Shown: piece by piece, positions 5,904 to 20,866 of the stretch
How the letters are laid out: the number at the start of each line of letters is the position of its first letter
How positions within the stretch are numbered: position 1 is the stretch's first letter
Source of the DNA: Delftia acidovorans NBRC 14950
GTDB taxonomy: Bacteria > Pseudomonadota > Gammaproteobacteria > Burkholderiales > Burkholderiaceae_C
Direction of reading: 5' to 3'
Assembly: GCF_001598795.1 (NCBI RefSeq)
Contig: NZ_BCZP01000046.1
Span: forward strand, 1 to 21,220
Length of the DNA stretch: 21,220 nucleotides
Position numbers and translations under genes: made by a program
The notes under the pieces: model-generated
What the model was told of the DNA's origin: nothing
Databases searched by the model: none
Seen by the model: the letters and a program-made list of their open reading frames with translations, nothing else

Positions 5904-6220
5904 TGGGAAGAAAGAGCCGGTGCTTTTTGAAAGCTTCCTGGGGGAATGAGAGGGAGGGAGGAGGAAATGCCCCAGACCCGGCAATGAAACGGTGCAGAAA
6001 CTGATGGCGATGATGCCTGCCGTGCGCAGGCCGGCCGATGGGTGAGAGGCGAGTCTGCACGTAGGACGGGGGAGCATCTGTCGAGTCACAGGCTGGTCAT
6101 CTCCATGCGCGATAAACCGGGAGTTGCGCAACCATGGGGGGGAGCGCATTGTTTTTTTATTGCGCATCCATGTCCATTGCTGCCACGCTGATTCCATTTG
6201 TTTTCAACCCGGCCAATCCG

Positions 6221-9200
6221 ATGAGTGCGCCATTGCAGCGCCATCGTTGGCGCCTGTATGGTGCGGGCCTGCTTCTTTCGGCATCTGCCGGGGTATGGGC
6301 GCAGGTTCCCTTCAACGGCACCTACACGCAGGATTTCGACACCCTGGCCACGTCCGGGACGGGGCTGGCCTGGGCCAATAACAGCACCTTGCCGGGCTGG
6401 TTTCTCTTCAACAAGAACCTGGCATCCATCACCTCTTACGTCGCTGGCAATGGGGCCTCCAACACCGGCAGCTTCTACAGCCTGGGGCTGAGCACGGACC
6501 GCGCCTTGGGGGGCGTGGCATCTGGCGGGGCCTACTTTGGCAGCCCGGCCCAGGGCGCTGTAGCGGGTTGGATTGCGCTGGCGGTGCGCAATGACACGGG
6601 TGGCTCGGTCGATGGCATCACCTTGCGATTCAACGGCGAGCAATGGCGCAACGGTGGCAATACGGAACGGCAGCCCATGGTGCTGGAGTACGGCATGGGA
6701 GCCAGCTTTGCCGACGTGCCTGAATGGCTGCCTGCCGGTGCGAACTTCAATTGGCAATCGCCTGTTGCCACCGGCACTGCTGCCGCCGTGGACGGCAATG
6801 TGGCCGGCCGGGTGAACAATGTGGGCGGTGATCTGCGCGGCCTGGGCTGGGCGCCAGGTGCCACGCTGTGGCTGCGTTGGGTAGAGCTCAATGATGTGGG
6901 CAACGACCACGGCCTGGCCATTGATGACGTCTCCATCACGCTGGCGCTGCCCGACACCACGGCGCCCACGCTGCAGGCAAGCATTCCCGCAGCGGCGGCG
7001 ACCGGGGTGGCGCTGAATCCCGAAATCAAGCTGAGTTTCGATGAGGCGGTGAAGCCCGGTAGCGGCAGCTTCGAACTGCGCCAGGGCGCCACGGTGGTGG
7101 CAACGCTGCAGGCTGGCGATGCGGCGCAGGTGAAATTCAGTGGCTCGACCATCACGCTCAACGCGGGTGTGCGGCTGGCGGTCAATACGCCCTATAGCCT
7201 GGTTTCCGTGGGCGAGCCGGTGTTGGATACCTCGGGCAATGCGTGGACCGGCACAACGCTGGGCTTCACGACAGGAGACGAGCCGCCGGTCACCAGGATT
7301 TCTGCGGTCCAGGGCTCTGGCGATCAGTCTCCTCTGGTGGGGCAGAAGGTGACGGTGAGTGCCGTGGTGACGGCCTATATGCCTGGACTGAGCGGCTTTT
7401 TCGTGCAGGAAGAGGCGGCAGACTCCGATGGCGATGCTGCTACCTCGGAGGGCGTCTTTGTCTACTACGGCAACGCCAATCCTGGCGTGGACGAGAGCAC
7501 GGTGGGCAAGCTGGTGCAGATTTCCGCCTCGGTGAGCGAGTTCCGCAATCAGACCCAGCTCAGCTCCATCACGGACTTCGTGGTCCGCGGCGCGGCGGCC
7601 TTGCCGGAGCCGGTGCGCATCGCACTGCCTGTCAGCGACATGGGGCAATGGGAACGTCTGGAAGGCATGCGTGTGGAGGTGGCATCCGCCACCGCAGGCG
7701 GCAAGCTGGTGGTGAGCGACAACCGCACGCTGGGCCGCTACGGCAATGTCACGCTGTCTGCCGATACGCCGTTGGCGCAGTACACCGAAGTCAACGCTCC
7801 CAGCGTGGCGGGCTATGCAGCCTACGTGCAGACGCTGCAGCGCAGCCAGATCATTCTCGATGATCGCTCGGGGGCCCAGAATCCCGAGTTCGTGCCGGGT
7901 CGTGGCGGCTTGCCGCTGTCGGCGTCCAACACGCTGCGCGCTGGCGATGGCGTGGACCGCGTCATCGGCGTGCTCGACCAGTTCTTTGATGCTGCCGCCA
8001 GCGAGCCCTATCTGACCAGCTACCGCGTGCAGCCCACGCAGACGCCGCAGTTCACGGGAGCCGCGCGACCTTCAGCCGCCGAATTGCAGCAGGCCGTGGG
8101 AGCGGCCACGCTCAAGATCGCATCGGCCAACGTTCTCAATTTCTTCAACCTGACCGGCGCCACAAGCGGCTCTTCCCAGGTGATGTTCAACACGCCGCTG
8201 GGCAACCAGCAGGGCATTCGCGGCGCCAACAGCATTGCCGAGCTGGACAGGCAGCGCGCCAAGATCGTGGCCAATCTGCTGGGGCTGGGCGCCGATGTGT
8301 ACGGCCTGATGGAGGTGCAGAACAATGGCTTTGGCCCGGGCAGCGCCATCCAGGATCTGGCCGACGCCTTGAATGCGAGTGCCGACAAGCCTGCCGGTGC
8401 CGTGTATGCGGTGGTCAAGGCGCCCTTCAGTGAGGCTGCAGGCACGGTGCCAGGTGCGGGCACGGTGCCAGGTGCGGGCACGGATGCCATTACCGTGGCC
8501 ATCGTCTATCGCAGCGACCGCGTCACGCCGATGGGCAGCGCAGCGGCACCCAATGTCTCTACCTACGATGCCTTCAACGGAAGCATCGGCGGAGCCCGGG
8601 TGCCGATTGCGCAGACCTTTGCCGTGGGCGGCAGCACGGAGCAGTTCACGCTGGTGGTGAACCATTTCAAATCCAAGGGCAGCGTGCTCGGTGGCGCAGG
8701 CAATGCGGACGTGCTCGACGGCCAGGGCGCCAACAACGCGGCGCGCGTGAAGACGGCCCAGCAACTGAGCAACTGGCTGGCAACCCGGCCCACAGGCGCG
8801 ACCAGCCCCCACGTGGTGCTGGTGGGCGATTTCAACGCCTATGCGAAGGAAGACCCCATCACCACGTTGGAGACCGGCGGCTATGTCAAGGTCTCCCAGG
8901 GGCTGTCCTATGCATTCGACGGAATGTGGGGTTCGCTGGACCATGTGCTGGTGAGCACCAGTCTGCAGCCCAGCGTGGGGCGTGCGGTCAAGTGGGCCAT
9001 CAATGCCGAGGAGCCCGAGGTGCTCGACTACAACGTCGAGTTCAAGTCGCTCGATCAGCAGGCCAGCTTCTATGCGCCCACTGCCTATCGTTCCAGTGAC
9101 CACAACCCCATTCTCCTGGGCCTGAATTTCGGTGGCCGGGCGCCCTCGTTCAGTGGCGTGCCTGCCAATGCGCAGGCGGTGGTGGTGGGGCAGGCGGCCG

Positions 9201-10006
9201 ATCTGGCGGACGTGGTGGTGGCCGATGCCGACAGCCCCGTCGTCACACTGTCCATCGTCGCCAGCGGCGGACAGGTGCTGGGCCTGGAGGATGCAGATGC
9301 TGCACAGCCCGGCATACAACTGCGCGGCAGCCCCGAACAGGTGTCGCAGCAATTGCGCGCCGCCATGTACATGGCTTCGGTAGCCGGCCCGGCCAGCCTG
9401 CAACTGAGCGTGAGCGATGGTGTCCATGCGGCTGTGACTGCCAGCTATCCGCTGCTGGCGACCGCAGCGGGCGCGGTGGACCCGGCCAATCGATTCAACA
9501 TCACCGGAGCAAGCCAGATTGCGGTTGCGGGCGAGGTCGTGGGCGGTGGCGCCAACTGCCGCTTGGCCGAGCCGCCGCAGGTCGTGGCGGCGCCGGGTAC
9601 TCCACGTCCTGGGGCGATGGTGCCACACGGGCTGTTGAAGCTCAATACCGATGGCTGTGATGCGGGTGCGCTCGTGACGGTCAGGCTGACCTATCCGAAC
9701 GATTTGCCCAGTGGTGCTGAATACTGGAAGTGGGGCCGCACGGCAGATAACACCACGCAGCACTGGTACCGCATACCTGCAACGCTGCAGGGTCGCGTCG
9801 TCTCCTTCGTGCTGCGCGATGGCGGCCTGGGCGATGACGATCTTCTGGCCAATGGCCGTGTGGAAGATCCTTCGGCTCTGGTGCTGCCTGCAGCGGTCGG
9901 TGGCGGCACGCCGGCGGCGATTCCGTCACTGAGCGAGTGGGCGGTCGCGCTGCTGAGCCTGATGATGGGTGGACTGGCCATCCGTCTGCGCCGCCGCAAA
10001 CCTTGA
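6221..10006 (+). CDS. ExeM/NucH-family extracellular endonuclease (EEP domain) with Ig-like domain, choice-of-anchor-type domain and IPTL-CTERM sorting tail
   Basis: The signal peptide from ATG 6221 is MSAPLQRHRWRLYGAGLLLSASAGVWAQ. The ExeM-type block is ISAVQGSGDQSPLVGQKVTV...GFFVQEE...VSEFRNQTQL. EEP motifs are present (IASANVLNFF, GLMEVQN, VVNHFKSKG, LVGDFNAY, SLDHVLVS, SDHNPILLGL). The C-terminus IPSLSEWAVALLSLMMGGLAIRLRRRKP is an IPTL-type motif, a TM segment and a basic tail. Alternative upstream starts lie at 6134 and 6170. Confidence 0.85.
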   Translation: MSAPLQRHRWRLYGAGLLLSASAGVWAQVPFNGTYTQDFDTLATSGTGLAWANNSTLPGWFLFNKNLASITSYVAGNGASNTGSFYSLGLSTDRALGGVASGGAYFGSPAQGAVAGWIALAVRNDTGGSVDGITLRFNGEQWRNGGNTERQPMVLEYGMGASFADVPEWLPAGANFNWQSPVATGTAAAVDGNVAGRVNNVGGDLRGLGWAPGATLWLRWVELNDVGNDHGLAIDDVSITLALPDTTAPTLQASIPAAAATGVALNPEIKLSFDEAVKPGSGSFELRQGATVVATLQAGDAAQVKFSGSTITLNAGVRLAVNTPYSLVSVGEPVLDTSGNAWTGTTLGFTTGDEPPVTRISAVQGSGDQSPLVGQKVTVSAVVTAYMPGLSGFFVQEEAADSDGDAATSEGVFVYYGNANPGVDESTVGKLVQISASVSEFRNQTQLSSITDFVVRGAAALPEPVRIALPVSDMGQWERLEGMRVEVASATAGGKLVVSDNRTLGRYGNVTLSADTPLAQYTEVNAPSVAGYAAYVQTLQRSQIILDDRSGAQNPEFVPGRGGLPLSASNTLRAGDGVDRVIGVLDQFFDAAASEPYLTSYRVQPTQTPQFTGAARPSAAELQQAVGAATLKIASANVLNFFNLTGATSGSSQVMFNTPLGNQQGIRGANSIAELDRQRAKIVANLLGLGADVYGLMEVQNNGFGPGSAIQDLADALNASADKPAGAVYAVVKAPFSEAAGTVPGAGTVPGAGTDAITVAIVYRSDRVTPMGSAAAPNVSTYDAFNGSIGGARVPIAQTFAVGGSTEQFTLVVNHFKSKGSVLGGAGNADVLDGQGANNAARVKTAQQLSNWLATRPTGATSPHVVLVGDFNAYAKEDPITTLETGGYVKVSQGLSYAFDGMWGSLDHVLVSTSLQPSVGRAVKWAINAEEPEVLDYNVEFKSLDQQASFYAPTAYRSSDHNPILLGLNFGGRAPSFSGVPANAQAVVVGQAADLADVVVADADSPVVTLSIVASGGQVLGLEDADAAQPGIQLRGSPEQVSQQLRAAMYMASVAGPASLQLSVSDGVHAAVTASYPLLATAAGAVDPANRFNITGASQIAVAGEVVGGGANCRLAEPPQVVAAPGTPRPGAMVPHGLLKLNTDGCDAGALVTVRLTYPNDLPSGAEYWKWGRTADNTTQHWYRIPATLQGRVVSFVLRDGGLGDDDLLANGRVEDPSALVLPAAVGGGTPAAIPSLSEWAVALLSLMMGGLAIRLRRRKP
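8441..8483 (+). repeat. 18-bp in-frame tandem repeat (2.4 copies) inside the nuclease gene
   Basis: GGCACGGTGCCAGGTGCG occurs twice, followed by GGCACGG, and encodes GTVPGA-GTVPGA-GT. Confidence 0.9.
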
Positions 10007-13467: not shown

Positions 13468-14496
13468 TCAGCGTGTCGCATCAACCTTCAACGCGCGTTT
13501 GTGGCGCACATAGTCGGCGGTCTGGGACTGGGTGGAATGAGCGCCCATGCGCTGCGCCTCCATGATCCCGCGCCCACGGTCCACATCGGTCAGGGCCTTG
13601 CCGCGCAGGTCATGGAAATGGCAGTCCATCACGCCGGCCCGCTTCACTGCCCGCTTCCAGGCGGTTGATGCGCCCGAGTAGGTGTAGGGCTGGCCCTGCA
13701 GCGTGCAGAACACGAAAGCGGGGCTCTGGTTGGGCAGGGCCCGCAGGCGGTCCACCACATCGCGCAGGCGCTGCGTCCATGCGATCAGGACCTGGGCGCC
13801 AGTCGAGCCCTCGGTTTTGGCCGGCTGGAACGCGATGCCCTGCTTGCCCACATCGCTCCACCGCAAGGTCAGTAGGTCGCCAATGCGCTGCCCGGTCAGG
13901 TAGGCCATGTCGATCAGCGCGCAGATCGTGTGGCCGGAGCGCGTGCGCTTGCCGTCGTCCCCGTACATCACGGCCACCTTGATGCGGCGCACCTCGGAAT
14001 CCGTGATGTACCGCGTGCGCGCCTTCACAGACATGGTCTTGAGGCTGTCCACCGGGTTCGTGCCTGGCGGCCGGTAGCCTTTCTCTTCGGCGAACCGCAT
14101 CAGCTCTCGCAGCATGGAGCGGTAGGCGTTATAGGTGCGCGGCTTGTCGCTGAAGTGTTTCAGGAACTCCACGATGGCCGGCGCGGTGACCTCCTGCGCG
14201 CGAAACTCCTGGAACGATTCGGAGATGGTGCGCGTTTGGTAGGCATCGTTAGCCTGCGTTTTCACGCTGTGCCTGCTGCCTACCTCAGCGAGCCAGTCCG
14301 CGATCAGCGCGGGCATGCTGTCCCGGGCCATGTCTGCCTGCTCCATATCGGCCAGGGCGCGGTATAGAGCAGGTAGGCCGTCACGGATGGTGGATAGGCG
14401 CGTCCAGATCCGCCTTTTCCCTTCGGCGCGGACATGCCAATAGGCGCCCCCCTTTTCGTAGACACGCTTCGGTAGGTCGCTGCGGCGCTTGCTCAT
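13468..14496 (-). CDS. int: Tyrosine-type phage integrase
   Basis: 342 aa from the ATG at 14496, with GGAGG upstream and an ATGA overlap with the upstream gene's stop. Catalytic-core blocks are present: LTGQRIGDLLTLRWSDV (Arg), HFHDLRGKALT (H-x-x-R), AHSTQSQTADYVRH (Tyr). It lies adjacent to the tRNA fragment. Confidence 0.9.
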   Translation of the reverse strand: MSKRRSDLPKRVYEKGGAYWHVRAEGKRRIWTRLSTIRDGLPALYRALADMEQADMARDSMPALIADWLAEVGSRHSVKTQANDAYQTRTISESFQEFRAQEVTAPAIVEFLKHFSDKPRTYNAYRSMLRELMRFAEEKGYRPPGTNPVDSLKTMSVKARTRYITDSEVRRIKVAVMYGDDGKRTRSGHTICALIDMAYLTGQRIGDLLTLRWSDVGKQGIAFQPAKTEGSTGAQVLIAWTQRLRDVVDRLRALPNQSPAFVFCTLQGQPYTYSGASTAWKRAVKRAGVMDCHFHDLRGKALTDVDRGRGIMEAQRMGAHSTQSQTADYVRHKRALKVDATR

Positions 14497-14723
14497 GCTG
14501 GCCTCCGCATCTGCGGCGGCCGCACGCGCGGCGCGGTGGACGGAGCTGGCCCAGCGCAGACGGCCAGATAGTGGTCGCGCTCCAGAAGTACCTTCCCCGT
14601 GCGCTCGCTGATGCGGGCGCGGAAGAATCCGCGCTTGTGCAGCGCCTTGAGCTGCATGGACGGCCATTGGTAGTGGGTGAGCTCCCTGATCTCTTCTTCA
14701 GAGAGGGTGAGGCTGATGCTCAT
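14493..14723 (-). CDS. DUF4224-like small protein (excisionase/recombination-directionality position)
   Basis: 76 aa from the ATG at 14723. The block LTLSEEEIRELTHYQWPSMQLKALHKRGFFRARISERTGKVLLERDHY resembles DUF4224 proteins, which commonly precede phage integrases. It is translationally coupled to int. Confidence 0.65.
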   Translation of the reverse strand: MSISLTLSEEEIRELTHYQWPSMQLKALHKRGFFRARISERTGKVLLERDHYLAVCAGPAPSTAPRVRPPQMRRPA

Positions 14724-14782: not shown

Positions 14783-16810
14783 TCAAGCGGCGACTTCGTA
14801 GATCAGCGCCTCATGGGCGAAGTTGGCGCGGGCCAGGGCCTCGGCCAGCGGCGGGCAGACGCTGTTGCCGCACATGCGGACTTGGGCGGTGGTGCTCAGG
14901 TCGATGAGGGGCACGTCACGCGGGTCGCTGGCCTGCTTGCCGTCGCGGAACAGCAGGGCCGGGTCGGGCACGCGCTCGAAGTGGTAGTCGCGTGGAAATC
15001 CTTGGGCGCGGAACAGCTCGCGTGGCTTGAGCATGCGCAGCGTGATGTCCACCAGCACCCACCACTGCCCGGCATGCCACATGAGCACCAGCTCGGCTGG
15101 GTCGGGGAAGTGCTCGGGCAAGTGCTTGTGCAGCAACTCGGCGCAGAGCCGGGCGCGCTCAGCATGCTCGGGCGCCAGTGTTGCGGCCGGCACCTGGATG
15201 GTCTGCACCAGACCCATGCGCGCCTTGGTGGGCACGGTGTGCATGGGCTCGCTGCAGGCGCTGTCCTGGCCGCCCTCGCTGTAGTACTTCACCAGGTAGG
15301 CCGTGATCAGGCGCTGCTGGGTGCCGCTGGATGTGACCGTGGACAAGGGGTCGTCCGCCGCGCGCCCGTCGCCGTTGTAGAACCCGCCGTTGGCCTGCTC
15401 CAGGCATGCGGCCACCATGGCCTGCTCGCCCCGGTTGGCGCCGGTGACGGTGCGCGGGGGCTCGCGCGGATCGTTGCCGCTGCGCTCGCCGTGGTGGGTG
15501 AGGTGCGTCAGTTGTGCCGAGACAATGCCCATCTGGATGCCGGTGCTGGGCCGCTTGGGCGTACCGCCAGCTGTTACCGTTGGCAGCGGCGCGTCTACCG
15601 CGCTGCCCACGCTTCCGGTGTTGAACTTCGTGATGTGGGCCATGGCCAGGGCGCTTTTGACTCCGCCGGCCACCACGGTCCCCAGTGGGGCCTCGATGTC
15701 CTGCACGCGCGGCTGCTGGCCCTCGCGCTCGCCGTAGCCGATGGTGACCAGGTTGGCGCCCACCAGGGCGTGGTGTGTGCCGCTGGCCGCCACGGTGGAC
15801 AGCGGAGCATCCACGGCGTGGCCGACCAGATGCTGCTCGGACGTGCCTTGCAGCGGGGCCAGCGTGGGCGCCACGACCGAGAAGTGCCCGCCCTTGACTT
15901 GGGCACAGATCGTGCGCAGGGGCGCGTCAGCGGGCATGGTGCGCTGGTTGCTGGCGTTGGCGTGCTCGTTCAGATACGGCGCCTGGGCGCCGACGATGTA
16001 CGGGCTGTCACTGGTGAGGACATGCTTCCAAAGGCCCTTCGCCACCCGGCGCATGGTGTTGTCCACCAGGGCACGCTTGCGCCCGAATACGCTTTCGGCT
16101 GGCAAATCGAAGTCGATGCACTCGGCGGCCGTGCGGTGCGCAGCCAGCTTGCCAGCGATCACACGGCGGTCGGTTGGCTCGGCATGAGTCTGCTCGGGCC
16201 ATACGATGGGCAGGCCATCCCGGCGTGCCACGAGGAACAGGCGCTTGCGGATCGTGGGCGTGCCGTGATCGCTGGCGCGCAGCTCGCGCCAGTCCACCTG
16301 GTAGCCGTGCATGCGCAGCTGGCGCACGAACGACTGGAAGGTCTTACCCCGTCGTGCGGGGTCCGGCCGGGCCTGGCCATCGGGGCCGACGAGGATCGGC
16401 CCCCAGGTCTGGAACTCCTCCACGTTCTCAAGCATGAGCACGCGGGGCTTGCACATTGCCACCCAGCGCATGCCCACCCAGGCCAGGCCCCGGATGTGCT
16501 TCGAGACGGGTGTGCCGCCTTTGGCCTTCGAGAAATGCTTGCAGTCTGGAGACAGCCAGACCAGTGCCACGGGCTGATTGCGCGTGACCTCAATGGGGTT
16601 TACGTCCCACACGCTCTCGCACAGGTGCAGCGTGTGCGGGTGGTTCGCTGCGTGCATTGCCAGCGCCTCGGGGTCGTGGTTGATGGCGATGTCCACGGGC
16701 CGGCCGAATGCAGCTTCGAGACCGGTACTGGTGCCGCCTCCTCCTGCAAAGTTATCGATGATCAACTCGCCAGGGAATGCGAGTGGCAATGTAAAGGCAT
16801 CACGCTTCAT
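14783..16810 (-). CDS. DNA (cytosine-5)-methyltransferase, large phage type with reiterated putative target-recognition modules
   Basis: 675 aa from the ATG at 16810. Motifs: I IIDNFAGGGG, IV LSPDCKHFSKAKGG, VI LMLENVEEF, VIII TIRKRLFLVA, IX RELFRAQGFPRDY, X MCGNSVCPPLAEAL. Between motifs VIII and IX lie seven degenerate modules, each with P-x-x-T-V/I. Confidence 0.9.
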   Translation of the reverse strand: MKRDAFTLPLAFPGELIIDNFAGGGGTSTGLEAAFGRPVDIAINHDPEALAMHAANHPHTLHLCESVWDVNPIEVTRNQPVALVWLSPDCKHFSKAKGGTPVSKHIRGLAWVGMRWVAMCKPRVLMLENVEEFQTWGPILVGPDGQARPDPARRGKTFQSFVRQLRMHGYQVDWRELRASDHGTPTIRKRLFLVARRDGLPIVWPEQTHAEPTDRRVIAGKLAAHRTAAECIDFDLPAESVFGRKRALVDNTMRRVAKGLWKHVLTSDSPYIVGAQAPYLNEHANASNQRTMPADAPLRTICAQVKGGHFSVVAPTLAPLQGTSEQHLVGHAVDAPLSTVAASGTHHALVGANLVTIGYGEREGQQPRVQDIEAPLGTVVAGGVKSALAMAHITKFNTGSVGSAVDAPLPTVTAGGTPKRPSTGIQMGIVSAQLTHLTHHGERSGNDPREPPRTVTGANRGEQAMVAACLEQANGGFYNGDGRAADDPLSTVTSSGTQQRLITAYLVKYYSEGGQDSACSEPMHTVPTKARMGLVQTIQVPAATLAPEHAERARLCAELLHKHLPEHFPDPAELVLMWHAGQWWVLVDITLRMLKPRELFRAQGFPRDYHFERVPDPALLFRDGKQASDPRDVPLIDLSTTAQVRMCGNSVCPPLAEALARANFAHEALIYEVAA

Positions 16811-16835
16811 GTGCGAGTTCCTGTGGTGGAAATGC

Positions 16836-16867
16836 AAAAAGCCCGAGAGGCGACTGCCAAGCGGGCT
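16836..16867 (-). terminator. Terminator-like hairpin (minus strand) immediately upstream of the methyltransferase start
   Basis: On the minus strand, AGCCCG-cttggcagtcgcctct-CGGGCT is followed by TTTTTG, about 25 nt before the MTase ATG. It lies in the 97-bp gap between the MTase and the AT-rich cassette. Confidence 0.5.
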
Positions 16868-16907
16868 ATGGGGGGTTAGGATTCGCCACTCATGAAAGGA
16901 GAGGGCG

Positions 16908-17567
16908 ATGGATGTTGATCAATTGATTGCTGGTATTGGTTCTGCGGTTGTCCTGGCCGAGTCTCAGAACAACTGCTCATTCCCGTGCATGACTAAATCG
17001 GAGTGGGCGAGTTGGGCTCAGGCTATAACAGCAATATTGGGTATATTGGTTGCGGTTATTACATTTGTTGTATCTTCATATCATCGGAGAAAAGAGAGAT
17101 ATGTAGACAATATTATGGTGTGGGACAGAGACAGAAGAATTGCAGAGGAAATGATCACCCAATTTTCTGGATCTCTTAAGTCTGTTTATAACTGGCTGAA
17201 TCCGAAGAATGGTGGGGGTAGAGAGTTGCTGGATTTACTATATAGGAAAGCCCTCCTGGAGGGCCAGTGTGAGAAAATAAAACAATTGCCACTGTACGTT
17301 CTGACGCAATCGGAGTGTCAATATTCATTTCTAATTCAAGCGCACGCGCAAAATTTGATTGCTGCAATGTCTATGATTGATGGTGAATATTTTGAAAATG
17401 CAGAACATGATATTATTATAAAAGAGGATAGGTTTCTAATTCTAGATAAAATATTTATGGATAAATCAAATGGCGCGATAAATGCAATGAGTAATATTGA
17501 AAGTGGATTTAATAAAGAGCGAATTTTATCTAGGGACGGATTTTTGCAATTGCGTGGAGATAAATAG
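16908..17567 (+). CDS. Membrane-anchored protein of unknown function (cassette gene A)
   Basis: 219 aa. The ATG at 16908 is preceded by AAGGAG, and an alternative ATG lies at 16989. One strong TM helix (WAQAITAILGILVAVITFVVSSY) is followed by a basic stop-transfer (HRRKER) and a soluble domain of about 150 aa that looks helical. Codon usage is AT-rich and matches the rest of the cassette. Confidence 0.65.
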   Translation: MDVDQLIAGIGSAVVLAESQNNCSFPCMTKSEWASWAQAITAILGILVAVITFVVSSYHRRKERYVDNIMVWDRDRRIAEEMITQFSGSLKSVYNWLNPKNGGGRELLDLLYRKALLEGQCEKIKQLPLYVLTQSECQYSFLIQAHAQNLIAAMSMIDGEYFENAEHDIIIKEDRFLILDKIFMDKSNGAINAMSNIESGFNKERILSRDGFLQLRGDK

Positions 17568-17618
17568 TTTCAGTGCGATGGCTAGTGAATCAATGGTTAA
17601 CGAAACCCTAGATTTGCC

Positions 17619-17822
17619 GTGAATCCCGTTCATCAGGTTGCTACGGTCAGTGTCGATGAGTTAGGCACTATCAGAATTGAATCTATCGAAGCGCCTCCAC
17701 GCTTGCGCATGTCCAAGGAATTTAGGCTAGTTCAGCCTATTAATAAGCCGTCTGAACAATTGCTTGCTGATTGGGAAATATGCATTTCATGGATTTCCAA
17801 AGAAAAACAACAGGTTAAATAA
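17619..17822 (+). CDS. Small protein of unknown function (cassette gene B)
   Basis: 67 aa with a GTG start and no clear SD. It lies 51 nt after gene A and ends 27 nt before gene C. The sequence is protein-like (MNPVHQVATVSVDELGTIRIESIEAPPRLRMSKEFRLVQPINKPSEQLLADWEICISWISKEKQQVK). Confidence 0.45.
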   Translation: MNPVHQVATVSVDELGTIRIESIEAPPRLRMSKEFRLVQPINKPSEQLLADWEICISWISKEKQQVK

Positions 17823-17849
17823 CTGCAATTTAATACTTAGGAGATAGCC

Positions 17850-19097
17850 TTGACTCTAAATGCAACCCTTCAATTGTCCGACAGCATAGGACTTGGTCGC
17901 TTCATATATTTCAGTGGACTCGAATATCCAGTTTTACTGACTCCGACAGTACACGGTGAACCACTTTTGACGGCGCAGAGTATTTACTACATCGATCGTT
18001 TGGAATCAGTTGCAAACATTCGAGGTAAAAGTAATGATGATATGCTGCCAGAAGATAAAATCGAATATCTAATGGATAATTATTTATTCGAATTTAGTAA
18101 ACTTCATCCTGAATCTCGAGTGACATTCAAGGTTGCAGACTATGTATTCTGGAGGGACGATCCAGACTCAAAATATTCGCTGGCTGATCATCGTTGTACA
18201 AGCACATTAACGCTTGATCAGAGCAATGATTCCGCCGTTTTAAGCATCGAAGCTATCGACGAGGCAGATGACGTCGACCTCGGTGACTGGGATATTGGAA
18301 GGAACTATAGCTTCTCGTGTATTAGCGAATTTATTGCAGGGACGGCGTCTTTGCTTGAAAAGAAGGTTCTAGTAAAAATGCTTCCAGATGAACATAGAGA
18401 TGGATATTTTGGAAAATTAAGAGTTGTTAAAGCAGAGGGTTCCTACATCGACTTCTTTCAAGCGCGTGCGTTAGAGTATATAAGTGTAAGAAATATAACG
18501 AGTGATACGAAACATATTTCCTTAAATAAAAGTCAAATGCCGGGTGCCGAATCATCTCTTCCGGTCGAGCACATCGTAACAACCAGGATGCATAATCCTG
18601 TACTGTTATCTCATTTCTTTTCTGGAATTAAAGAATTGAATCCCCTGAAGGGGTACCTTAGTTACTATAACGTTCTCGAGTACTACTTTGAAGAAGCCCC
18701 TTTAATGCTTGATCGCTCAGCGAGGACGGAGCTAGAGCAGTTGAAATGCACCCTTGAAATACTGGTATCCGACGCCGATGTGAAGGAAATGCTGACGACG
18801 CTAACCGTGCAATCGAAGACTAAGGTTTTTGAGGATTTGCCAACTTCGTCTGGAGTGCCGCTTAAGCGTCTTGATGATCAGGCGGCCAGTATTCGCAGCG
18901 AGCTTGCCAGATGGCTGTACGACATCCGTTGTGCGGTAGTGCACTCGAAGAAGACACGAAGGGGTGTCGCAGTCGCGTCATTTGAACCGTACTCAACTAC
19001 AACCAAGAATTTGGATGTCGCTGTTTTTCTTGTTAGGAATCTCGCCATAAAATGCATCGAAAAGGATACGGATCTGCAAAATATGATACCAACTTAG
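17850..19097 (+). CDS. HEPN-like (R-x4-H) domain protein with an uncharacterised N-terminal domain (cassette gene C)
   Basis: 415 aa. The TTG start at 17850 is preceded by AGGAG. The C-terminal roughly 170 aa look helical, with LSYYNVLEYYFEEAP early and WLYDIRCAVVHSKK (R360-x4-H365, nt 18927-18944) about 50 aa from the end. That is the usual position of the HEPN RNase motif. The N-terminal roughly 240 aa look beta-rich and are unrecognised. Confidence 0.7.
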   Translation: MTLNATLQLSDSIGLGRFIYFSGLEYPVLLTPTVHGEPLLTAQSIYYIDRLESVANIRGKSNDDMLPEDKIEYLMDNYLFEFSKLHPESRVTFKVADYVFWRDDPDSKYSLADHRCTSTLTLDQSNDSAVLSIEAIDEADDVDLGDWDIGRNYSFSCISEFIAGTASLLEKKVLVKMLPDEHRDGYFGKLRVVKAEGSYIDFFQARALEYISVRNITSDTKHISLNKSQMPGAESSLPVEHIVTTRMHNPVLLSHFFSGIKELNPLKGYLSYYNVLEYYFEEAPLMLDRSARTELEQLKCTLEILVSDADVKEMLTTLTVQSKTKVFEDLPTSSGVPLKRLDDQAASIRSELARWLYDIRCAVVHSKKTRRGVAVASFEPYSTTTKNLDVAVFLVRNLAIKCIEKDTDLQNMIPT

Positions 19098-19495
19098 GGC
19101 GTGGTTTTGAACTTTAGGTTTATCACGAGTATGTACGTTTCCAAGGAAAATATTAGCGTAATGCAGTTGATAAAGTGCTATAAGAATAGGGCTTCTAACG
19201 CTTCCCTGTGCTCGTGCTTCTCACTGGCAGTTGGGATGATACGAAGGATTTGCCGGTCTTTGTCTACGATCAAGTTTAGCAGTTGGCTTGAAAGAAGCAG
19301 TCCCTAGAGGTTTCGTATCCAGGGGCTTGAGGCACCGCCTGGACTTGGCGTGCACCCTCTTACTTGGTGTATCTGCAATGCGTTGCTTAACTGTTAGCCA
19401 TTTCGATCAGGAATTGATCTCGGCCCTTTCCGTTGATCCAGTTCGGGAGGCTTGCCCCGGCCAATTAAGTCTTGGAGCCCTCTGAAGCATGTCGA

Positions 19496-19717
19496 TTAGT
19501 GGCCGCAGGGCACGCCTTGGCCCTTATTCAGCTGAGCGGGGCCTTCGCGCCAAAGCTCAGGCAGCGCCACGATGGCGCGCGGACAGCCGGCTGGTGGGCG
19601 CTGCACTTCACCGCCTTGACGCCGTCCGGATATGCCTTGATGACGGGCATGGAGGAAAAGGGCAGTGCGGCGCAGGCACGTCTGGCACATGGAGCCTTTG
19701 CAATGATGCTGTTTCAT
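19496..19717 (-). CDS. Possible small phage protein (73 aa), low confidence
   Basis: Its ATG overlaps the upstream gene's stop (ATGA at 19717-19714), suggesting coupling. It has an N-terminal Cys cluster (CKGSMCQTC), but the remainder is Arg/Gly/Pro-rich and looks only weakly protein-like. Confidence 0.3.
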   Translation of the reverse strand: MKQHHCKGSMCQTCLRRTALFLHARHQGISGRRQGGEVQRPPAGCPRAIVALPELWREGPAQLNKGQGVPCGH

Positions 19718-20067
19718 CGCGTGGGCTCCTCGTCGCTGGTGCGGTGGACCAGGCCCTGCCAGTGCTGGCCCGGCGGCAGTGGGGTGGTGTGGCCGGACCC
19801 GTCTGCCGTGGGCTTGGGCAATGCGCCTTGCAGCGCTGGCGAGTCAAGAAATCCCACGCGCGAAGCCTTTGTGATCCGCGCGAACTCGATCTCTGCGCGG
19901 GAACTGGCCACCAGGGTCTGGCCGATGTCGGTGATGGCGCGGGCGATCTGCGGCGACGTAGCGCCGCTGCGCAGATCCTTGATGGTCTGGAGCAGCAGCG
20001 ATTGCAGCTGGCCCATGCCGCTGGTTTCAGGCGGCGTGGGCTGGATGTCGGTTGTGGTGGTGGTCAT
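19714..20067 (-). CDS. Hypothetical phage protein (117 aa)
   Basis: The ATG at 20067 gives MTTTTTDIQPTPPETSGMGQLQSLLLQTIKDLRSG.... An alternative ATG at 20016 would remove the 41-nt overlap with the HNH gene. GC-rich, on the same strand as the neighbouring phage genes. Confidence 0.5.
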   Translation of the reverse strand: MTTTTTDIQPTPPETSGMGQLQSLLLQTIKDLRSGATSPQIARAITDIGQTLVASSRAEIEFARITKASRVGFLDSPALQGALPKPTADGSGHTTPLPPGQHWQGLVHRTSDEEPTR

Positions 20068-20866
20068 GCTCGGCTTTCTCAATTTCCTTGATGTCTTGGT
20101 CCAGCTGGCGTGTGAGTTGCCACACGGGCAGCAGGTCGATGGGTACGGCGGCCCCGTTGCTGCGGGACAGGTCTGTGCGTGAGATGCAGCGCAGGTTGTT
20201 GATGTCGAAATTGGAGGTGTCGCCGTCATGGAAGATGACGGCATGTCCCTCCGGAATAGGGCCGTGGTGCTGCTCCCAGACGATGCGGTGCACCAGCGCC
20301 CAGCGGTTTGGCTCTGCCACCTTGCGCTTGAGGTAGCGGGCTGCATGTGGCAGCGCGCGTGGCGGCGTGGTCCAACGCTCGGTGCCCACCGGCACCCAGG
20401 TCGGCGGCCTGTTGCCGGCCTTGAAATGGCTTTTTCCCTGCTCCACGCTGTACCCGTGCTTCCCCTTGTTCCAGGGTTTGAGCCCTGCAGTGAACTGCCC
20501 CTGCCGCTGGCCCTGGCGCAGCATGGAGGCGCGATAGGTCTGGGCCATCACGGCAGGGGTCTTGTGCAGTCCCAGGCGGCTGGCCCTTGTGGCGATGTCT
20601 CGCATGGGCATGCCCAGCAGCTCGCCCAGGTCCTCGTTGAGCATGTCGGCATACAGCAGCTGCAGCAGGTCATCTAGGTCCGTCCAGCGGCCGGTGCGCG
20701 CGGTCTTGGCCCCGGGGGCCTTCTTCACACCCAGGTCATGGGCGCGCTGCTGCACATGCCTGGCCGAGCGCTGCAGGTGCGCAGCGACGGCCGCTGTGGG
20801 CTGGGAGGGGTACTGCGCCCGCAGGTAGGCGTCATCCTCGGGCCGCCATGGCGTGTTCTTGCTCAT
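20027..20866 (-). CDS. Phage HNH endonuclease with N-terminal helix-turn-helix/SANT-like repeats
   Basis: 279 aa. The HNH_3-type block is ALVHRIVWEQHHGPIPEGHAVIFHDGDTSNFDINNLRCISR. The N-terminus has W-x-PEDDAYLRAQY-type repeats. Its start overlaps the upstream gene's stop (ATGA). Confidence 0.85.
   Translation of the reverse strand: MSKNTPWRPEDDAYLRAQYPSQPTAAVAAHLQRSARHVQQRAHDLGVKKAPGAKTARTGRWTDLDDLLQLLYADMLNEDLGELLGMPMRDIATRASRLGLHKTPAVMAQTYRASMLRQGQRQGQFTAGLKPWNKGKHGYSVEQGKSHFKAGNRPPTWVPVGTERWTTPPRALPHAARYLKRKVAEPNRWALVHRIVWEQHHGPIPEGHAVIFHDGDTSNFDINNLRCISRTDLSRSNGAAVPIDLLPVWQLTRQLDQDIKEIEKAEHDHHHNRHPAHAA

What the first reader, a model, noticed from the sequence alone, without database searches (positions are those of the whole stretch)
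17850..19097. 415-aa protein with a C-terminal R-x4-H HEPN signature and an unrecognised beta-rich N-terminal domain, using a TTG start
- The motif YDIRCAVVHSKK (R360, H365) lies about 50 aa from the C-terminus of a region that looks helical. That region opens with LSYYNVLEYYFEE.
- This placement and spacing match the catalytic R-x4-6-H motif of HEPN RNases (Abi, toxin and Cas13-type families).
- The first roughly 240 aa show no motif I recognise. They could be a phage-sensing or regulatory domain.
- The overall architecture (N-terminal domain plus C-terminal HEPN) recalls ApeA-type proteins, but I cannot verify homology without a profile search.
- G+C rises in the last roughly 250 nt of the gene, which hints at a mosaic origin.
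Basis: partly seen in the sequence, partly recalled or inferred. Interest (0 to 1): 0.72.

Follow-up and report, generated by a model that had tools for sequence, protein, structure and literature searches.

The report
Prophage-borne stand-alone HEPN-like defence candidate
The 415-aa gene is real and is AT-rich cargo in a variable slot of a Delftia prophage; its C-terminal domain belongs to the uncharacterised MauJ/DzbB domain family and looks like a HEPN RNase domain, so it is a plausible but untested single-gene anti-phage toxin, not an ApeA.

Summary
ORF 17850-19097 is a real gene with a TTG start, an AGGAG Shine-Dalgarno 6 nt upstream and in-frame stops just upstream. Homologue N-termini line up with this start.

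R360 is invariant and H365 is 35/36 in the family. In a wider superfamily (686 hits) the R, H and K of the R-[C/N]-x3-H-x-K motif and a helix-2 Y-x3-E motif are at least 90% conserved.

The C-terminal 170 aa is a Pfam MauJ / Dazbog DzbB-type domain. HEPN features:
- Met: motif at the end of helix 3, invariant acidic residue in helix 2, variable H2-H3 insert.
- Weak: fold search (top PDB hit is HEPN 2hsb, E=0.72) and profile comparison with real ApeA (motif aligns on motif, E=0.006, beats 299/300 shuffles).

It is not an ApeA: no ApeA_NTD1, and the N-terminal domain is alpha/beta and unrecognised.

No neighbouring gene is conserved. The gene is low-GC cargo in a prophage slot that holds a putAbiC gene in related prophages or nothing. 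In P2-like phages its homologues sit directly after the integrase.

The "mosaic origin" idea is not supported.

Best reading: a stand-alone abortive-infection-type RNase with a new sensor domain. This is a new variant of a known kind and is untested experimentally.

The parts
17839..17843 (+). Shine-Dalgarno AGGAG, 6 nt upstream of the TTG start
   Evidence: Read directly from the sequence.
17850..19097 (+). CDS for the 415-aa two-domain protein (TTG start, TAG stop). It is 100% identical to a Delftia acidovorans hypothetical protein, DR66_5987.
17850..18581 (+). N-terminal family-specific alpha/beta domain (aa 1-244). Conserved motifs are EYxxDNYLFE, LxxDxxNDxxV, DWDIGxNY and RDGYxGKLRV. No known family or fold was found. 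Proposed sensor or regulatory domain (inference).
   Evidence: - AF2 secondary structure.
- Conservation.
- No hits.
- It does not align with the N-terminal regions of the wider superfamily.
- It is retained in distant RN-type relatives P0138, P0143 and P0148.
18582..19094 (+). C-terminal MauJ/DzbB-type, HEPN-like helical domain (aa 245-415). Helices: H1 250-260, H2 265-277, insert 282-347, H3 348-364, H4 383-411.
   Evidence: - Domain model pLDDT 93.7.
- Pfam MauJ hit in 36/36 family members and PADLOC DzbB hit in 36/36.
- hhalign probability 99.9% to the superfamily.
- Top Foldseek hit is HEPN 2hsb, not significant.
18666..18689 (+). Helix-2 motif YNVLEYYF (Y273-F280). N274 and E277 are invariant. 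E277 is the candidate for the HEPN helix-2 acidic residue.
   Evidence: Criterion taken from PMC3710099.
18927..18950 (+). [quoted passage not shown]
   Evidence: -.
- It aligns with ApeA R456-N457-x3-H461.
17568..19424 (+). Low-GC cargo module of the prophage slot: the 67-aa ORF, the 415-aa gene and about 330 nt of 3' flank. It is absent from related prophage L041 and replaced by other genes in L038/L045.
   Evidence: - blastn breakpoints.
- GC profile.
- Gene maps.
16908..17567 (+). 219-aa single-TM protein at the left edge of the slot. It is present in related prophages with or without cargo, so it is context and not a dedicated partner.
17619..17822 (+). 67-aa GTG ORF of doubtful reality. 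It has no homologues next to any family member and no family hits. It is in the same frame as the 415-aa ORF but separated from it by two stops.
14783..16837 (-). Phage-type C5 DNA methyltransferase. This is the conserved left flank of the variable slot.
13468..14667 (-). Tyrosine integrase marking the prophage end.
20027..20866 (-). HNH endonuclease gene of the prophage backbone. Backbone homology to L041 resumes at 19425.

Best explanation
The 415-aa ORF is a genuine, stand-alone accessory gene (a 'moron') carried in a variable slot of a Delftia acidovorans prophage.

It has two domains:
- A family-specific N-terminal alpha/beta domain of unknown fold.
- A C-terminal ~170-aa helical domain of the MauJ (PF17419) / Dazbog DzbB type.

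I infer that the C-terminal domain is a divergent HEPN domain. Its features are a helix-2 N-x2-E motif, a poorly conserved insert, and an R-C-x3-H-x-K motif at the end of helix 3.

By analogy with characterised HEPN defence proteins (ApeA, DARNA, PrrC, HepT), the likely mechanism is as follows. The protein is kept inactive in the lysogen. An infection cue sensed by the N-terminal domain, probably with dimerisation or oligomerisation, brings two R-x4-H motifs together. Metal-independent cleavage of RNA (tRNA or mRNA) then stops growth and blocks superinfecting phages, which is abortive infection.

Shown here: the gene and its start, conservation, domain family, stand-alone status, and prophage-slot or moron location in at least three phage lineages.
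Inferred: HEPN homology (moderate support), RNase activity, the sensor role of the N-terminal domain, and the defence phenotype.
For: Gene and start.

Conservation:
- R360, C361, K367, N274 and E277 are 36/36; H365 is 35/36.
- The superfamily has 686 hits at E<=1e-3 in the exhaustive search.
- Y and E are invariant in 98 members; R is invariant; H and K are at least 90%.
- Asn replaces Cys after the Arg in 12/60, which gives the canonical HEPN RNxxxH.

Domain family:
- Pfam MauJ hits 36/36 family members (best 9.6e-7). PADLOC DzbB hits 36/36 (best 1.1e-8).
- hhalign gives 99.9% probability to MauJ-positive proteins.

HEPN features (criteria from PMC3710099):
- H3 is 348-364 with R360, H365 is the first loop residue, and H4 is 383-411.
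- The H2-H3 insert is the least conserved region (0.40, against 0.76 and 0.74 for the flanking helices).
- The top PDB hit of the domain model is HEPN 2hsb. MtlR/YggD and Csx1 also appear in the weak list.
- HEPN_Apea is the only Pfam family besides MauJ hit by more than two members (5/98).
- hhalign against 44 real ApeA proteins aligns motif on motif: E=0.026 full length, 0.0056 domain-trimmed, score 24.8 against null means of 14-16. It was exceeded by 0/150 column shuffles and 1/150 block shuffles.

Defence and mobile context:
- The island is ~40% GC in ~68-70% GC DNA and sits between the integrase/MTase and backbone genes.
- The same slot in related prophages holds a putAbiC gene (28.6 bits, cutoff 22) or nothing.
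- In Klebsiella P2-like phages and 8 IMG/VR contigs the homologue lies about 20-50 nt after the integrase, with a GC drop.
- No neighbour is conserved across 27 loci.
- Gabija, DpdF, JukB, PsyrT, Shedu, integrases and transposases occur near homologues.
- The DzbB-containing Dazbog system is an experimentally shown abortive-infection system.
Against: - No PDB sequence or profile hit to a HEPN chain.
- The window protein itself scores below Pfam's MauJ threshold (20.8 against 28 bits) and has no HEPN_Apea hit.
- hhalign probability is low (2-6%) and the aligned stretch is only 35 columns.
- The residue after the Arg is Cys, not the usual N/D/H.
- Millman et al. could not obtain a dzbB deletion, 'possibly due to toxicity'. 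That suggests DzbB may restrain DzbA rather than act as the killing effector.
- Many homologue neighbourhoods are ordinary housekeeping genes.
- No member of the family has been tested experimentally.
Confidence: 0.55

Rival explanations
1. The C-terminal domain has a HEPN-like or MauJ fold but is not a nuclease effector. It would act as a regulatory, ligand-binding or neutralising module, as DzbB may do for DzbA. The protein's output would then reside elsewhere, for example in the acid-rich N-terminal domain.
For: - A dzbB deletion could not be transformed, as for the antitoxins psyrA, shosA and rmrA.
- Non-catalytic HEPN domains exist, such as MtlR and the nucleotidyltransferase-associated forms.
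- The N-terminal domain has many invariant Asp/Asn residues: D76, N77, D113, D123, N126, D127, D140.
Against: - Non-catalytic HEPN families typically lose the R-x4-H motif. Here R, H, K and the helix-2 E are nearly invariant across hundreds of proteins.
- The gene has no conserved partner to regulate.
Confidence: 0.15
2. The domain is not HEPN at all. MauJ/DzbB would be an independent helical fold whose R-C-x3-H-x-K motif serves another chemistry, such as a Cys-His or metal site, or a DNA or nucleotide target. The similarity to ApeA would be convergent or due to chance.
For: - No significant fold or PDB profile hit.
- hhalign probability is 2-6% over 35 columns.
- C361 and C402 are invariant and C300 is nearly invariant in the family.
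- R-x4-6-H on its own is expected by chance.
Against: - Cys is replaced by Asn in 12/60 superfamily members, while R, H and K stay fixed.
- The motif position, helix order, variable insert and helix-2 acidic residue all match the HEPN description.
- HEPN proteins head the weak fold list.
- HEPN_Apea is the only recurrent secondary Pfam hit.
- The hhalign score exceeds 299/300 shuffles.
Confidence: 0.2
3. The three same-strand ORFs of the island (219-aa TM protein, 67-aa ORF, 415-aa protein) form one multi-gene system. This could be a toxin-antitoxin pair or a membrane effector plus sensor.
For: - Same strand, same low-GC island and short gaps of 51 and 27 nt.
- The TM protein weakly resembles a holin and a PADLOC '1TM effector'.
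Against: - The TM protein's homologues occur with different cargo (putAbiC) or with none.
- None of 27 other loci has a homologue of either ORF next to the 415-aa gene.
- In P2-like phages the gene follows the integrase directly.
- The 67-aa ORF has no homologues or family hits.
- No repeat RNA or Rfam element was found.
Confidence: 0.08
4. It is a divergent ApeA or a methylamine-utilisation protein (the database name 'MauJ').
For: - Sub-threshold HEPN_Apea hits in 5/98 superfamily members, and motif-on-motif hhalign.
- One homologue is named MauJ in NCBI.
Against: - No ApeA_NTD1, and a different fold class and length.
- No mau genes near any homologue examined, including Roseateles. The Paracoccus hit is an 80-aa remnant next to a methyltransferase.
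- The gene is prophage cargo.
Confidence: 0.02

Closest known systems
DzbB of the Dazbog defence system (Millman et al. 2022; PADLOC PDLC03836)
   Same: - The C-terminal domain is homologous. The window protein's residues 254-368 match HMM positions 191-308 at E=8e-7, and all 36 family members hit (best 1.1e-8).
- Dazbog is an experimentally supported abortive-infection system.
   Different: - Only the C-terminal third of the 341-position DzbB model is matched, and the N-terminal 244 aa is unrelated.
- There is no DzbA/DUF262 partner here or as a conserved neighbour.
- This protein works alone, if it works at all.
- DzbB's own biochemical role is unknown, and its deletion was not obtainable.
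Pfam MauJ domain (PF17419)
   Same: Same domain family. 36/36 family members and 95/98 superfamily members hit it. Some relatives pass the threshold (P0153, 33.1 bits).
   Different: - The window protein is below the gathering score (20.8 against 28 bits).
- No methylamine-utilisation context was seen.
- The family has an extra N-terminal domain.
- In the library searched here I found no paper that describes MauJ as a HEPN domain.
ApeA (Gao et al. 2020; ApeA_NTD1 + HEPN_Apea; tRNA anticodon nuclease, bioRxiv 10.64898/2026.01.26.701840)
   Same: - Single-protein architecture with a non-catalytic N-terminal part and a C-terminal R-x4-H domain.
- HEPN_Apea is the nearest established HEPN family by profile.
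- An ApeA gene sits in another variable slot of a related prophage.
   Different: - No ApeA_NTD1 or Mid domain.
- The N-terminal domain is alpha/beta, whereas ApeA is mostly helical.
- 415 aa against about 500-580 aa.
- Cys follows the Arg instead of Asn.
- All HEPN_Apea hits are below threshold.
Other HEPN abortive-infection RNases (DARNA/PD-T7-3, PrrC, HepT, AbiF/Abi_2)
   Same: The proposed chemistry (R-x4-H, metal-independent RNA cleavage, dimeric composite site) and the abortive-infection logic.
   Different: - DARNA has its HEPN domain at the N-terminus.
- HepT and AbiF need a protein or RNA antitoxin. No partner or repeat RNA is present here.
- No sequence hit to those families.
putAbiC (PF16872) gene in the same slot of related prophages
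   Same: It occupies the equivalent position between the TM-protein gene and the backbone. It is a positional analogue, which suggests defence cargo.
   Different: No sequence similarity (BLASTP E=0.65).

Membership tests
HEPN superfamily (criteria of Anantharaman et al. 2013, PMC3710099) | Conserved R-x4-6-H motif | tested here: met
   R360 is 36/36 and H365 is 35/36. In 98 superfamily members R is invariant and H is at least 90%.
HEPN superfamily (criteria of Anantharaman et al. 2013, PMC3710099) | [quoted passage not shown] | tested here: met
   AF2 gives helix 348-364, H365 as the first non-helical residue, a loop, then helix 383-411. The domain model has pLDDT 93.7. This rests on a predicted structure only.
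HEPN superfamily (criteria of Anantharaman et al. 2013, PMC3710099) | Four-helix up-down core with a poorly conserved insert between helices 2 and 3, shown by 3D similarity to solved HEPN domains | tested here: inconclusive
   - The helix order and the variable insert fit (identity 0.40 against 0.74-0.76 for the flanking helices).
- The top Foldseek hit is HEPN 2hsb, but with E=0.72 and TM 0.31/0.39. MtlR/YggD and Csx1 appear further down the weak list.
HEPN superfamily (criteria of Anantharaman et al. 2013, PMC3710099) | Conserved acidic residue in helix 2 | tested here: met
   E277 lies in helix 265-277. It is invariant in the 36 family members and in the 98 superfamily members. Its spatial proximity to R360/H365 was not checked.
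HEPN superfamily (criteria of Anantharaman et al. 2013, PMC3710099) | Polar residue (N, D or H) immediately after the Arg | tested here: not met
   Cys in 36/36 of this family. Asn in 12/60 of the wider superfamily. This feature is typical of HEPN domains but not obligatory.
HEPN superfamily (criteria of Anantharaman et al. 2013, PMC3710099) | Profile-level homology to an established HEPN family | tested here: inconclusive
   - hhalign against 44 ApeA proteins gives E=0.0056-0.026 and probability 2-6%, with motif aligned on motif. The score exceeds 299/300 shuffles.
- HEPN_Apea hits are sub-threshold in 5/98 members.
HEPN superfamily (criteria of Anantharaman et al. 2013, PMC3710099) | Dimeric composite active site and metal-independent RNase activity | not testable with these tools
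   No multimer modelling or biochemistry was available.
ApeA | ApeA_NTD1 (PF18862) N-terminal domain | tested here: not met
   No hit, even at E<=10. Real ApeA proteins do carry it.
ApeA | HEPN_Apea (PF18739) above threshold | tested here: not met
   The window protein has no hit. One of 36 family members hits at E=0.13.
ApeA | Mostly alpha-helical three-domain architecture of about 500-580 aa | tested here: not met
   This protein is 415 aa with a strand-rich N-terminal half.
Dazbog (DzbA + DzbB) | Adjacent DzbA with a DUF262 domain | tested here: not met
   The neighbours here are a 1-TM protein, a 67-aa ORF, a C5 MTase and an HNH gene. No neighbour is conserved across 27 loci.
Dazbog (DzbA + DzbB) | Full-length match to the DzbB model | tested here: not met
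   Only HMM positions 191-308 of 341 are matched.
Pfam MauJ (PF17419) | Score at or above the gathering threshold (28 bits) | tested here: not met
   The window protein scores 20.8 bits.
Pfam MauJ (PF17419) | Homology of the domain to proteins that pass the threshold | tested here: met
   hhalign probability is 99.9%, E=1.6e-32, to alignment A2. In A2, 54/60 members hit MauJ, and P0153 scores 33.1 bits.
Type III toxin-antitoxin (AbiF-like HEPN with a repeat RNA antitoxin) | Tandem repeat array next to the toxin gene | tested here: not met
   No tandem repeats and no Rfam hit in 16700-19700.
Prophage variable-slot (hotspot) cargo | Conserved flanking genes with alternative or absent cargo in related prophages | tested here: met
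   - The MTase and TM gene on the left and the backbone on the right are conserved at 74-95% nucleotide identity.
- The cargo is the 415-aa gene, or a 200-aa protein plus putAbiC, or nothing.

The most novel reading that the evidence does not exclude
The MauJ/DzbB-type domain is a previously unrecognised clade of catalytic HEPN RNases with the signature R-[C/N]-x3-H-x-K plus a helix-2 Y-x3-E. The 415-aa family is a new single-gene, prophage-borne abortive-infection system whose N-terminal domain is a novel sensor fold. This would also assign an effector chemistry to Dazbog's DzbB.
Probability: 0.4. Interest if true: 0.7.

Novelty: new variant of a known kind. Interest (0 to 1): 0.55.

Why it matters
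- If confirmed, this adds a compact single-gene defence candidate carried by temperate phages of Delftia, Klebsiella and other hosts.
- It would give a testable catalytic hypothesis (R360, H365, K367, E277) for the whole MauJ/DzbB domain superfamily, which has hundreds of members. That includes the mechanistically uncharacterised Dazbog system.
- It would correct the misleading 'methylamine utilization protein MauJ' annotation that is spreading through databases.
- The N-terminal domain has no recognisable relatives and could represent a new infection-sensing module.
- The prophage slot defined here, and a second slot that holds ApeA in a related prophage, is a useful place to look for further defence cargo.

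Tried and rejected
Searches that found nothing useful:
- phmmer and profile searches against PDB sequences gave no relevant hits. The only hits were spurious MamA matches at E>0.2.
- Foldseek of the full-length model against PDB and BFVD gave nothing significant.
- NCBIfam and PHROGs gave no hits.
- There were no nucleotide matches in phages and no protein matches in plasmids.
- Literature searches for a MauJ-HEPN or DzbB-HEPN link found nothing.
- No tRNA gene lies near the integrase.

Ideas rejected:
- Neighbour clustering found no conserved partner, which rejects the operon and 'gene B' idea.
- Mosaic origin is rejected. Identity to the closest homologues is even along the protein, and the GC3 difference is within sampling noise for 83 codons.
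- The putAbiC protein in the same slot is unrelated.
- A type III RNA antitoxin is rejected.
- The Paracoccus 'MauJ' lead was a truncated remnant, not a mau-cluster gene.

Partial result:
- hhalign of the narrow family alone (A1) against ApeA gave nothing (E=0.24-0.37). Only the diverse superfamily profile shows the motif-on-motif alignment.
Full report
**The observation**

The window matches Delftia acidovorans: the protein is 100% identical to hypothetical protein DR66_5987. ORF 17850-19097 (+) encodes 415 aa from a TTG. The start is well supported. AGGAG lies at 17839-17843 with a 6-nt spacer, and in-frame stops at 17820 and 17838 prevent any extension. The N-termini of 35 homologues align with it ('MAxNxxLQL'). 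A Klebsiella phage homologue begins with ATG at the same position.

RCAVVHSK is encoded at 18927-18950 and YNVLEYYF at 18666-18689. R-x4-6-H occurs only once in the protein, and about 1.35 occurrences are expected by chance, so the motif alone proves nothing. Its weight comes from conservation. R360, C361, K367, N274 and E277 are 36/36, and H365 is 35/36.

**What family it belongs to**

Pfam gives only a sub-threshold MauJ hit (PF17419, 20.8 bits against a cutoff of 28, residues 256-383). PADLOC gives DzbB, the second protein of the Dazbog system (E=8e-7, residues 254-368 on HMM positions 191-308 of 341). NCBIfam and PHROGs give nothing. Every one of 36 family members hits both MauJ and DzbB.

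An exhaustive profile search of 1.84 billion representatives found 686 proteins at E<=1e-3. The full-length family is small, with 38 hits at E<=1e-30. Hundreds of proteins of 400-470 aa share only the C-terminal ~115-170 residues. hhalign joins the two sets over window residues ~235-406 with probability 99.9%, while the N-terminal parts do not align.

Across 98 superfamily members, the helix-2 Y and E and the Arg are invariant, and the His and Lys are at least 90% conserved. The residue after the Arg is Cys in 47/60 and Asn in 12/60, and the Asn form is the classical HEPN RNxxxH. More distant relatives such as P0138 and P0143 keep both the N-terminal 'DNYLF' domain and an RN-type motif.

**Is the C-terminal domain HEPN?**

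I took the criteria from Anantharaman et al. 2013: a four-helix up-down core, a poorly conserved insert between helices 2 and 3, Rx4-6H at the end of helix 3 running into the loop, an acidic residue in helix 2, and usually a polar residue after the Arg.

The AF2 models have pLDDT 86.6 for the full length and 93.7 for the domain alone. They give H1 250-260, H2 265-277 (N274, E277), a helical and loop insert at 282-347, H3 348-364 (R360, with H365 as the first loop residue) and H4 383-411. Conservation follows the HEPN pattern: 0.76 for H1-H2, 0.40 for the insert and 0.74 for H3 plus its loop.

At the profile level, HEPN_Apea is the only Pfam family other than MauJ that more than two of the 98 members hit. 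It is hit by 5 members, best E=0.041, all sub-threshold.

I then recovered a genuine ApeA gene from a related prophage contig (L045:5344-6957, ApeA_NTD1 + HEPN_Apea) and built a 44-sequence ApeA alignment. Comparing the profiles, the single top hit aligns 'RIYdIRCrIVHsK...llPfS.Ea' with ApeA's invariant 'AVkcRNyFVHGss...PFLTDa'. The E-value is 0.026 for full-length profiles and 0.0056 for domain-trimmed ones. The score of 24.8 exceeds 150/150 column shuffles and 149/150 block shuffles of the ApeA profile, whose means are 14-16 with sd about 3.

I conclude that a HEPN assignment is likely, at roughly 70%, but not proven. The Cys after the Arg is atypical.

**It is not an ApeA**

ApeA proteins carry ApeA_NTD1, a Mid domain and HEPN_Apea, and they are mostly helical. 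Ec2ApeA has at least 583 residues, and the homologues collected here are about 500-540 aa. The window protein has none of these domains above threshold, is 415 aa long, and has a strand-rich N-terminal half.

It is not a Dazbog system either. There is no DzbA/DUF262 partner, and only the C-terminal part of DzbB is shared. The database name 'MauJ' is misleading. No mau genes were seen near homologues, and the hit in a Paracoccus contig is an 80-aa remnant next to a methyltransferase.

**Genomic context**

The gene lies in a ~40% GC island within ~68-70% GC DNA. The surroundings are a prophage: integrase 13468-14667, phage-type C5 methyltransferase 14783-16837 and an HNH gene at 20027-20866.

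Related prophage contigs share the MTase and a homologue of the 219-aa single-TM protein, but differ in what follows:
- Delftia has the 67-aa ORF plus the 415-aa gene.
- L038, L039, L045, L046 and L047 have a 200-aa protein plus a 423-aa putAbiC protein (28.6 bits against a cutoff of 22).
- L041 has nothing.

The blastn breakpoints place the Delftia cargo at about 17568-19424. The TM protein therefore belongs to the slot's edge and is not a partner.

Clustering all ORFs within 3.5 kb of the homologue in 27 other loci found no conserved neighbour. Neighbourhoods include Shedu, Gabija, DpdF, JukB, PsyrT, integrases and transposases, but also housekeeping genes.

Independently, five Klebsiella P2-like phages and eight IMG/VR contigs carry a 415-aa homologue (38-39% identity) about 20-50 nt downstream of the integrase, at the prophage end, with GC 31-36% against 42-53% for the phage. 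A ninth viral contig of another lineage shows the same GC drop. The family is spread patchily over Proteobacteria, Acidobacteriota, Chlorobium and Bacteroidetes, with one Bathyarchaeota contig. All of this fits a horizontally mobile, stand-alone accessory gene of the kind temperate phages carry for defence.

The GC rise in the last 250 nt is small: 0.484 against 0.416, and the GC3 difference is within sampling noise for 83 codons. Identity to the closest homologues is even along the protein. There is therefore no evidence of a mosaic origin. No tandem repeats or Rfam families occur in the island, so a type III RNA antitoxin is unlikely.

**Mechanism proposed (inference)**

By analogy with ApeA, DARNA, PrrC and HepT, the protein would dimerise or oligomerise through the C-terminal domain to form a composite R-x4-H site. 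It would cleave RNA, perhaps tRNA anticodon loops, once the N-terminal domain senses an infection cue, and this would abort superinfection of the lysogen.

A caveat comes from Dazbog. A dzbB deletion could not be made, 'possibly due to toxicity', which leaves open that this domain restrains rather than kills in that system.

**Verdict**

Noticed in passing
L045:5344-6957 and L045:2082-3353 (related prophage contig): A bona fide ApeA gene (ApeA_NTD1 + HEPN_Apea) sits in a second variable slot, between the 113-aa early gene and the S24 repressor region. A putAbiC gene occupies the slot that holds the 415-aa gene in Delftia. This prophage lineage appears to have at least two defence-cargo hotspots.
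   Followed up: partly
window 16908-17567 (+): A 219-aa single-TM protein with a good RBS. It is nearly an orphan, with only two metagenomic relatives at 40-43% identity. It is always at the left edge of the slot, next to the MTase or a DUF5131 gene, with or without cargo. It has weak hits to an HP1-type holin (E=0.004) and a PADLOC '1TM effector' (E=0.03). It may be a superinfection-exclusion or membrane protein in its own right.
   Followed up: partly
window 17619-17822 (+): A 67-aa GTG ORF with no obvious RBS and no homologues or family hits. It is in the same reading frame as the 415-aa ORF but cut off from it by TAA (17820) and TAG (17838). Some pipelines call it as a gene and NCBI does not.
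   Followed up: partly
window 17529-17549 and 19288-19308: An imperfect 21-nt inverted repeat (81% complementary) brackets the cargo module almost exactly. It could be a relic of the mobilisation mechanism, or chance.
   Followed up: no
window 14783-16837 (-); L035:2877-4571: A C5 DNA methyltransferase lies next to family members twice: in the window, and beside a truncated 80-aa remnant in a Paracoccus contig. Dazbog, whose DzbB shares the C-terminal domain, is triggered by a phage C5 methylase. The association does not recur in the other ~25 loci, so it may be coincidence.
   Followed up: partly
window 6134-10006 (+): A 1290-aa ORF upstream of the prophage integrase, on the host side, has no PHROG hit and no precomputed Pfam domain in the NCBI record. 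It was not examined further.
   Followed up: no
L037 (Klebsiella phage Kp4882-2) 5983-7230; L049-L056: P2-like (Peduoviridae) phages of Klebsiella and related IMG/VR contigs carry the family directly after the integrase, as the last gene before the prophage end. This int-proximal position may be a general cargo site in these phages.
   Followed up: partly
P0142 (658 aa), P0143 (600 aa): Distant relatives with both domains plus an extra C-terminal extension of about 170-200 aa that has no Pfam hit. This is a possible additional module in some family members.
   Followed up: no
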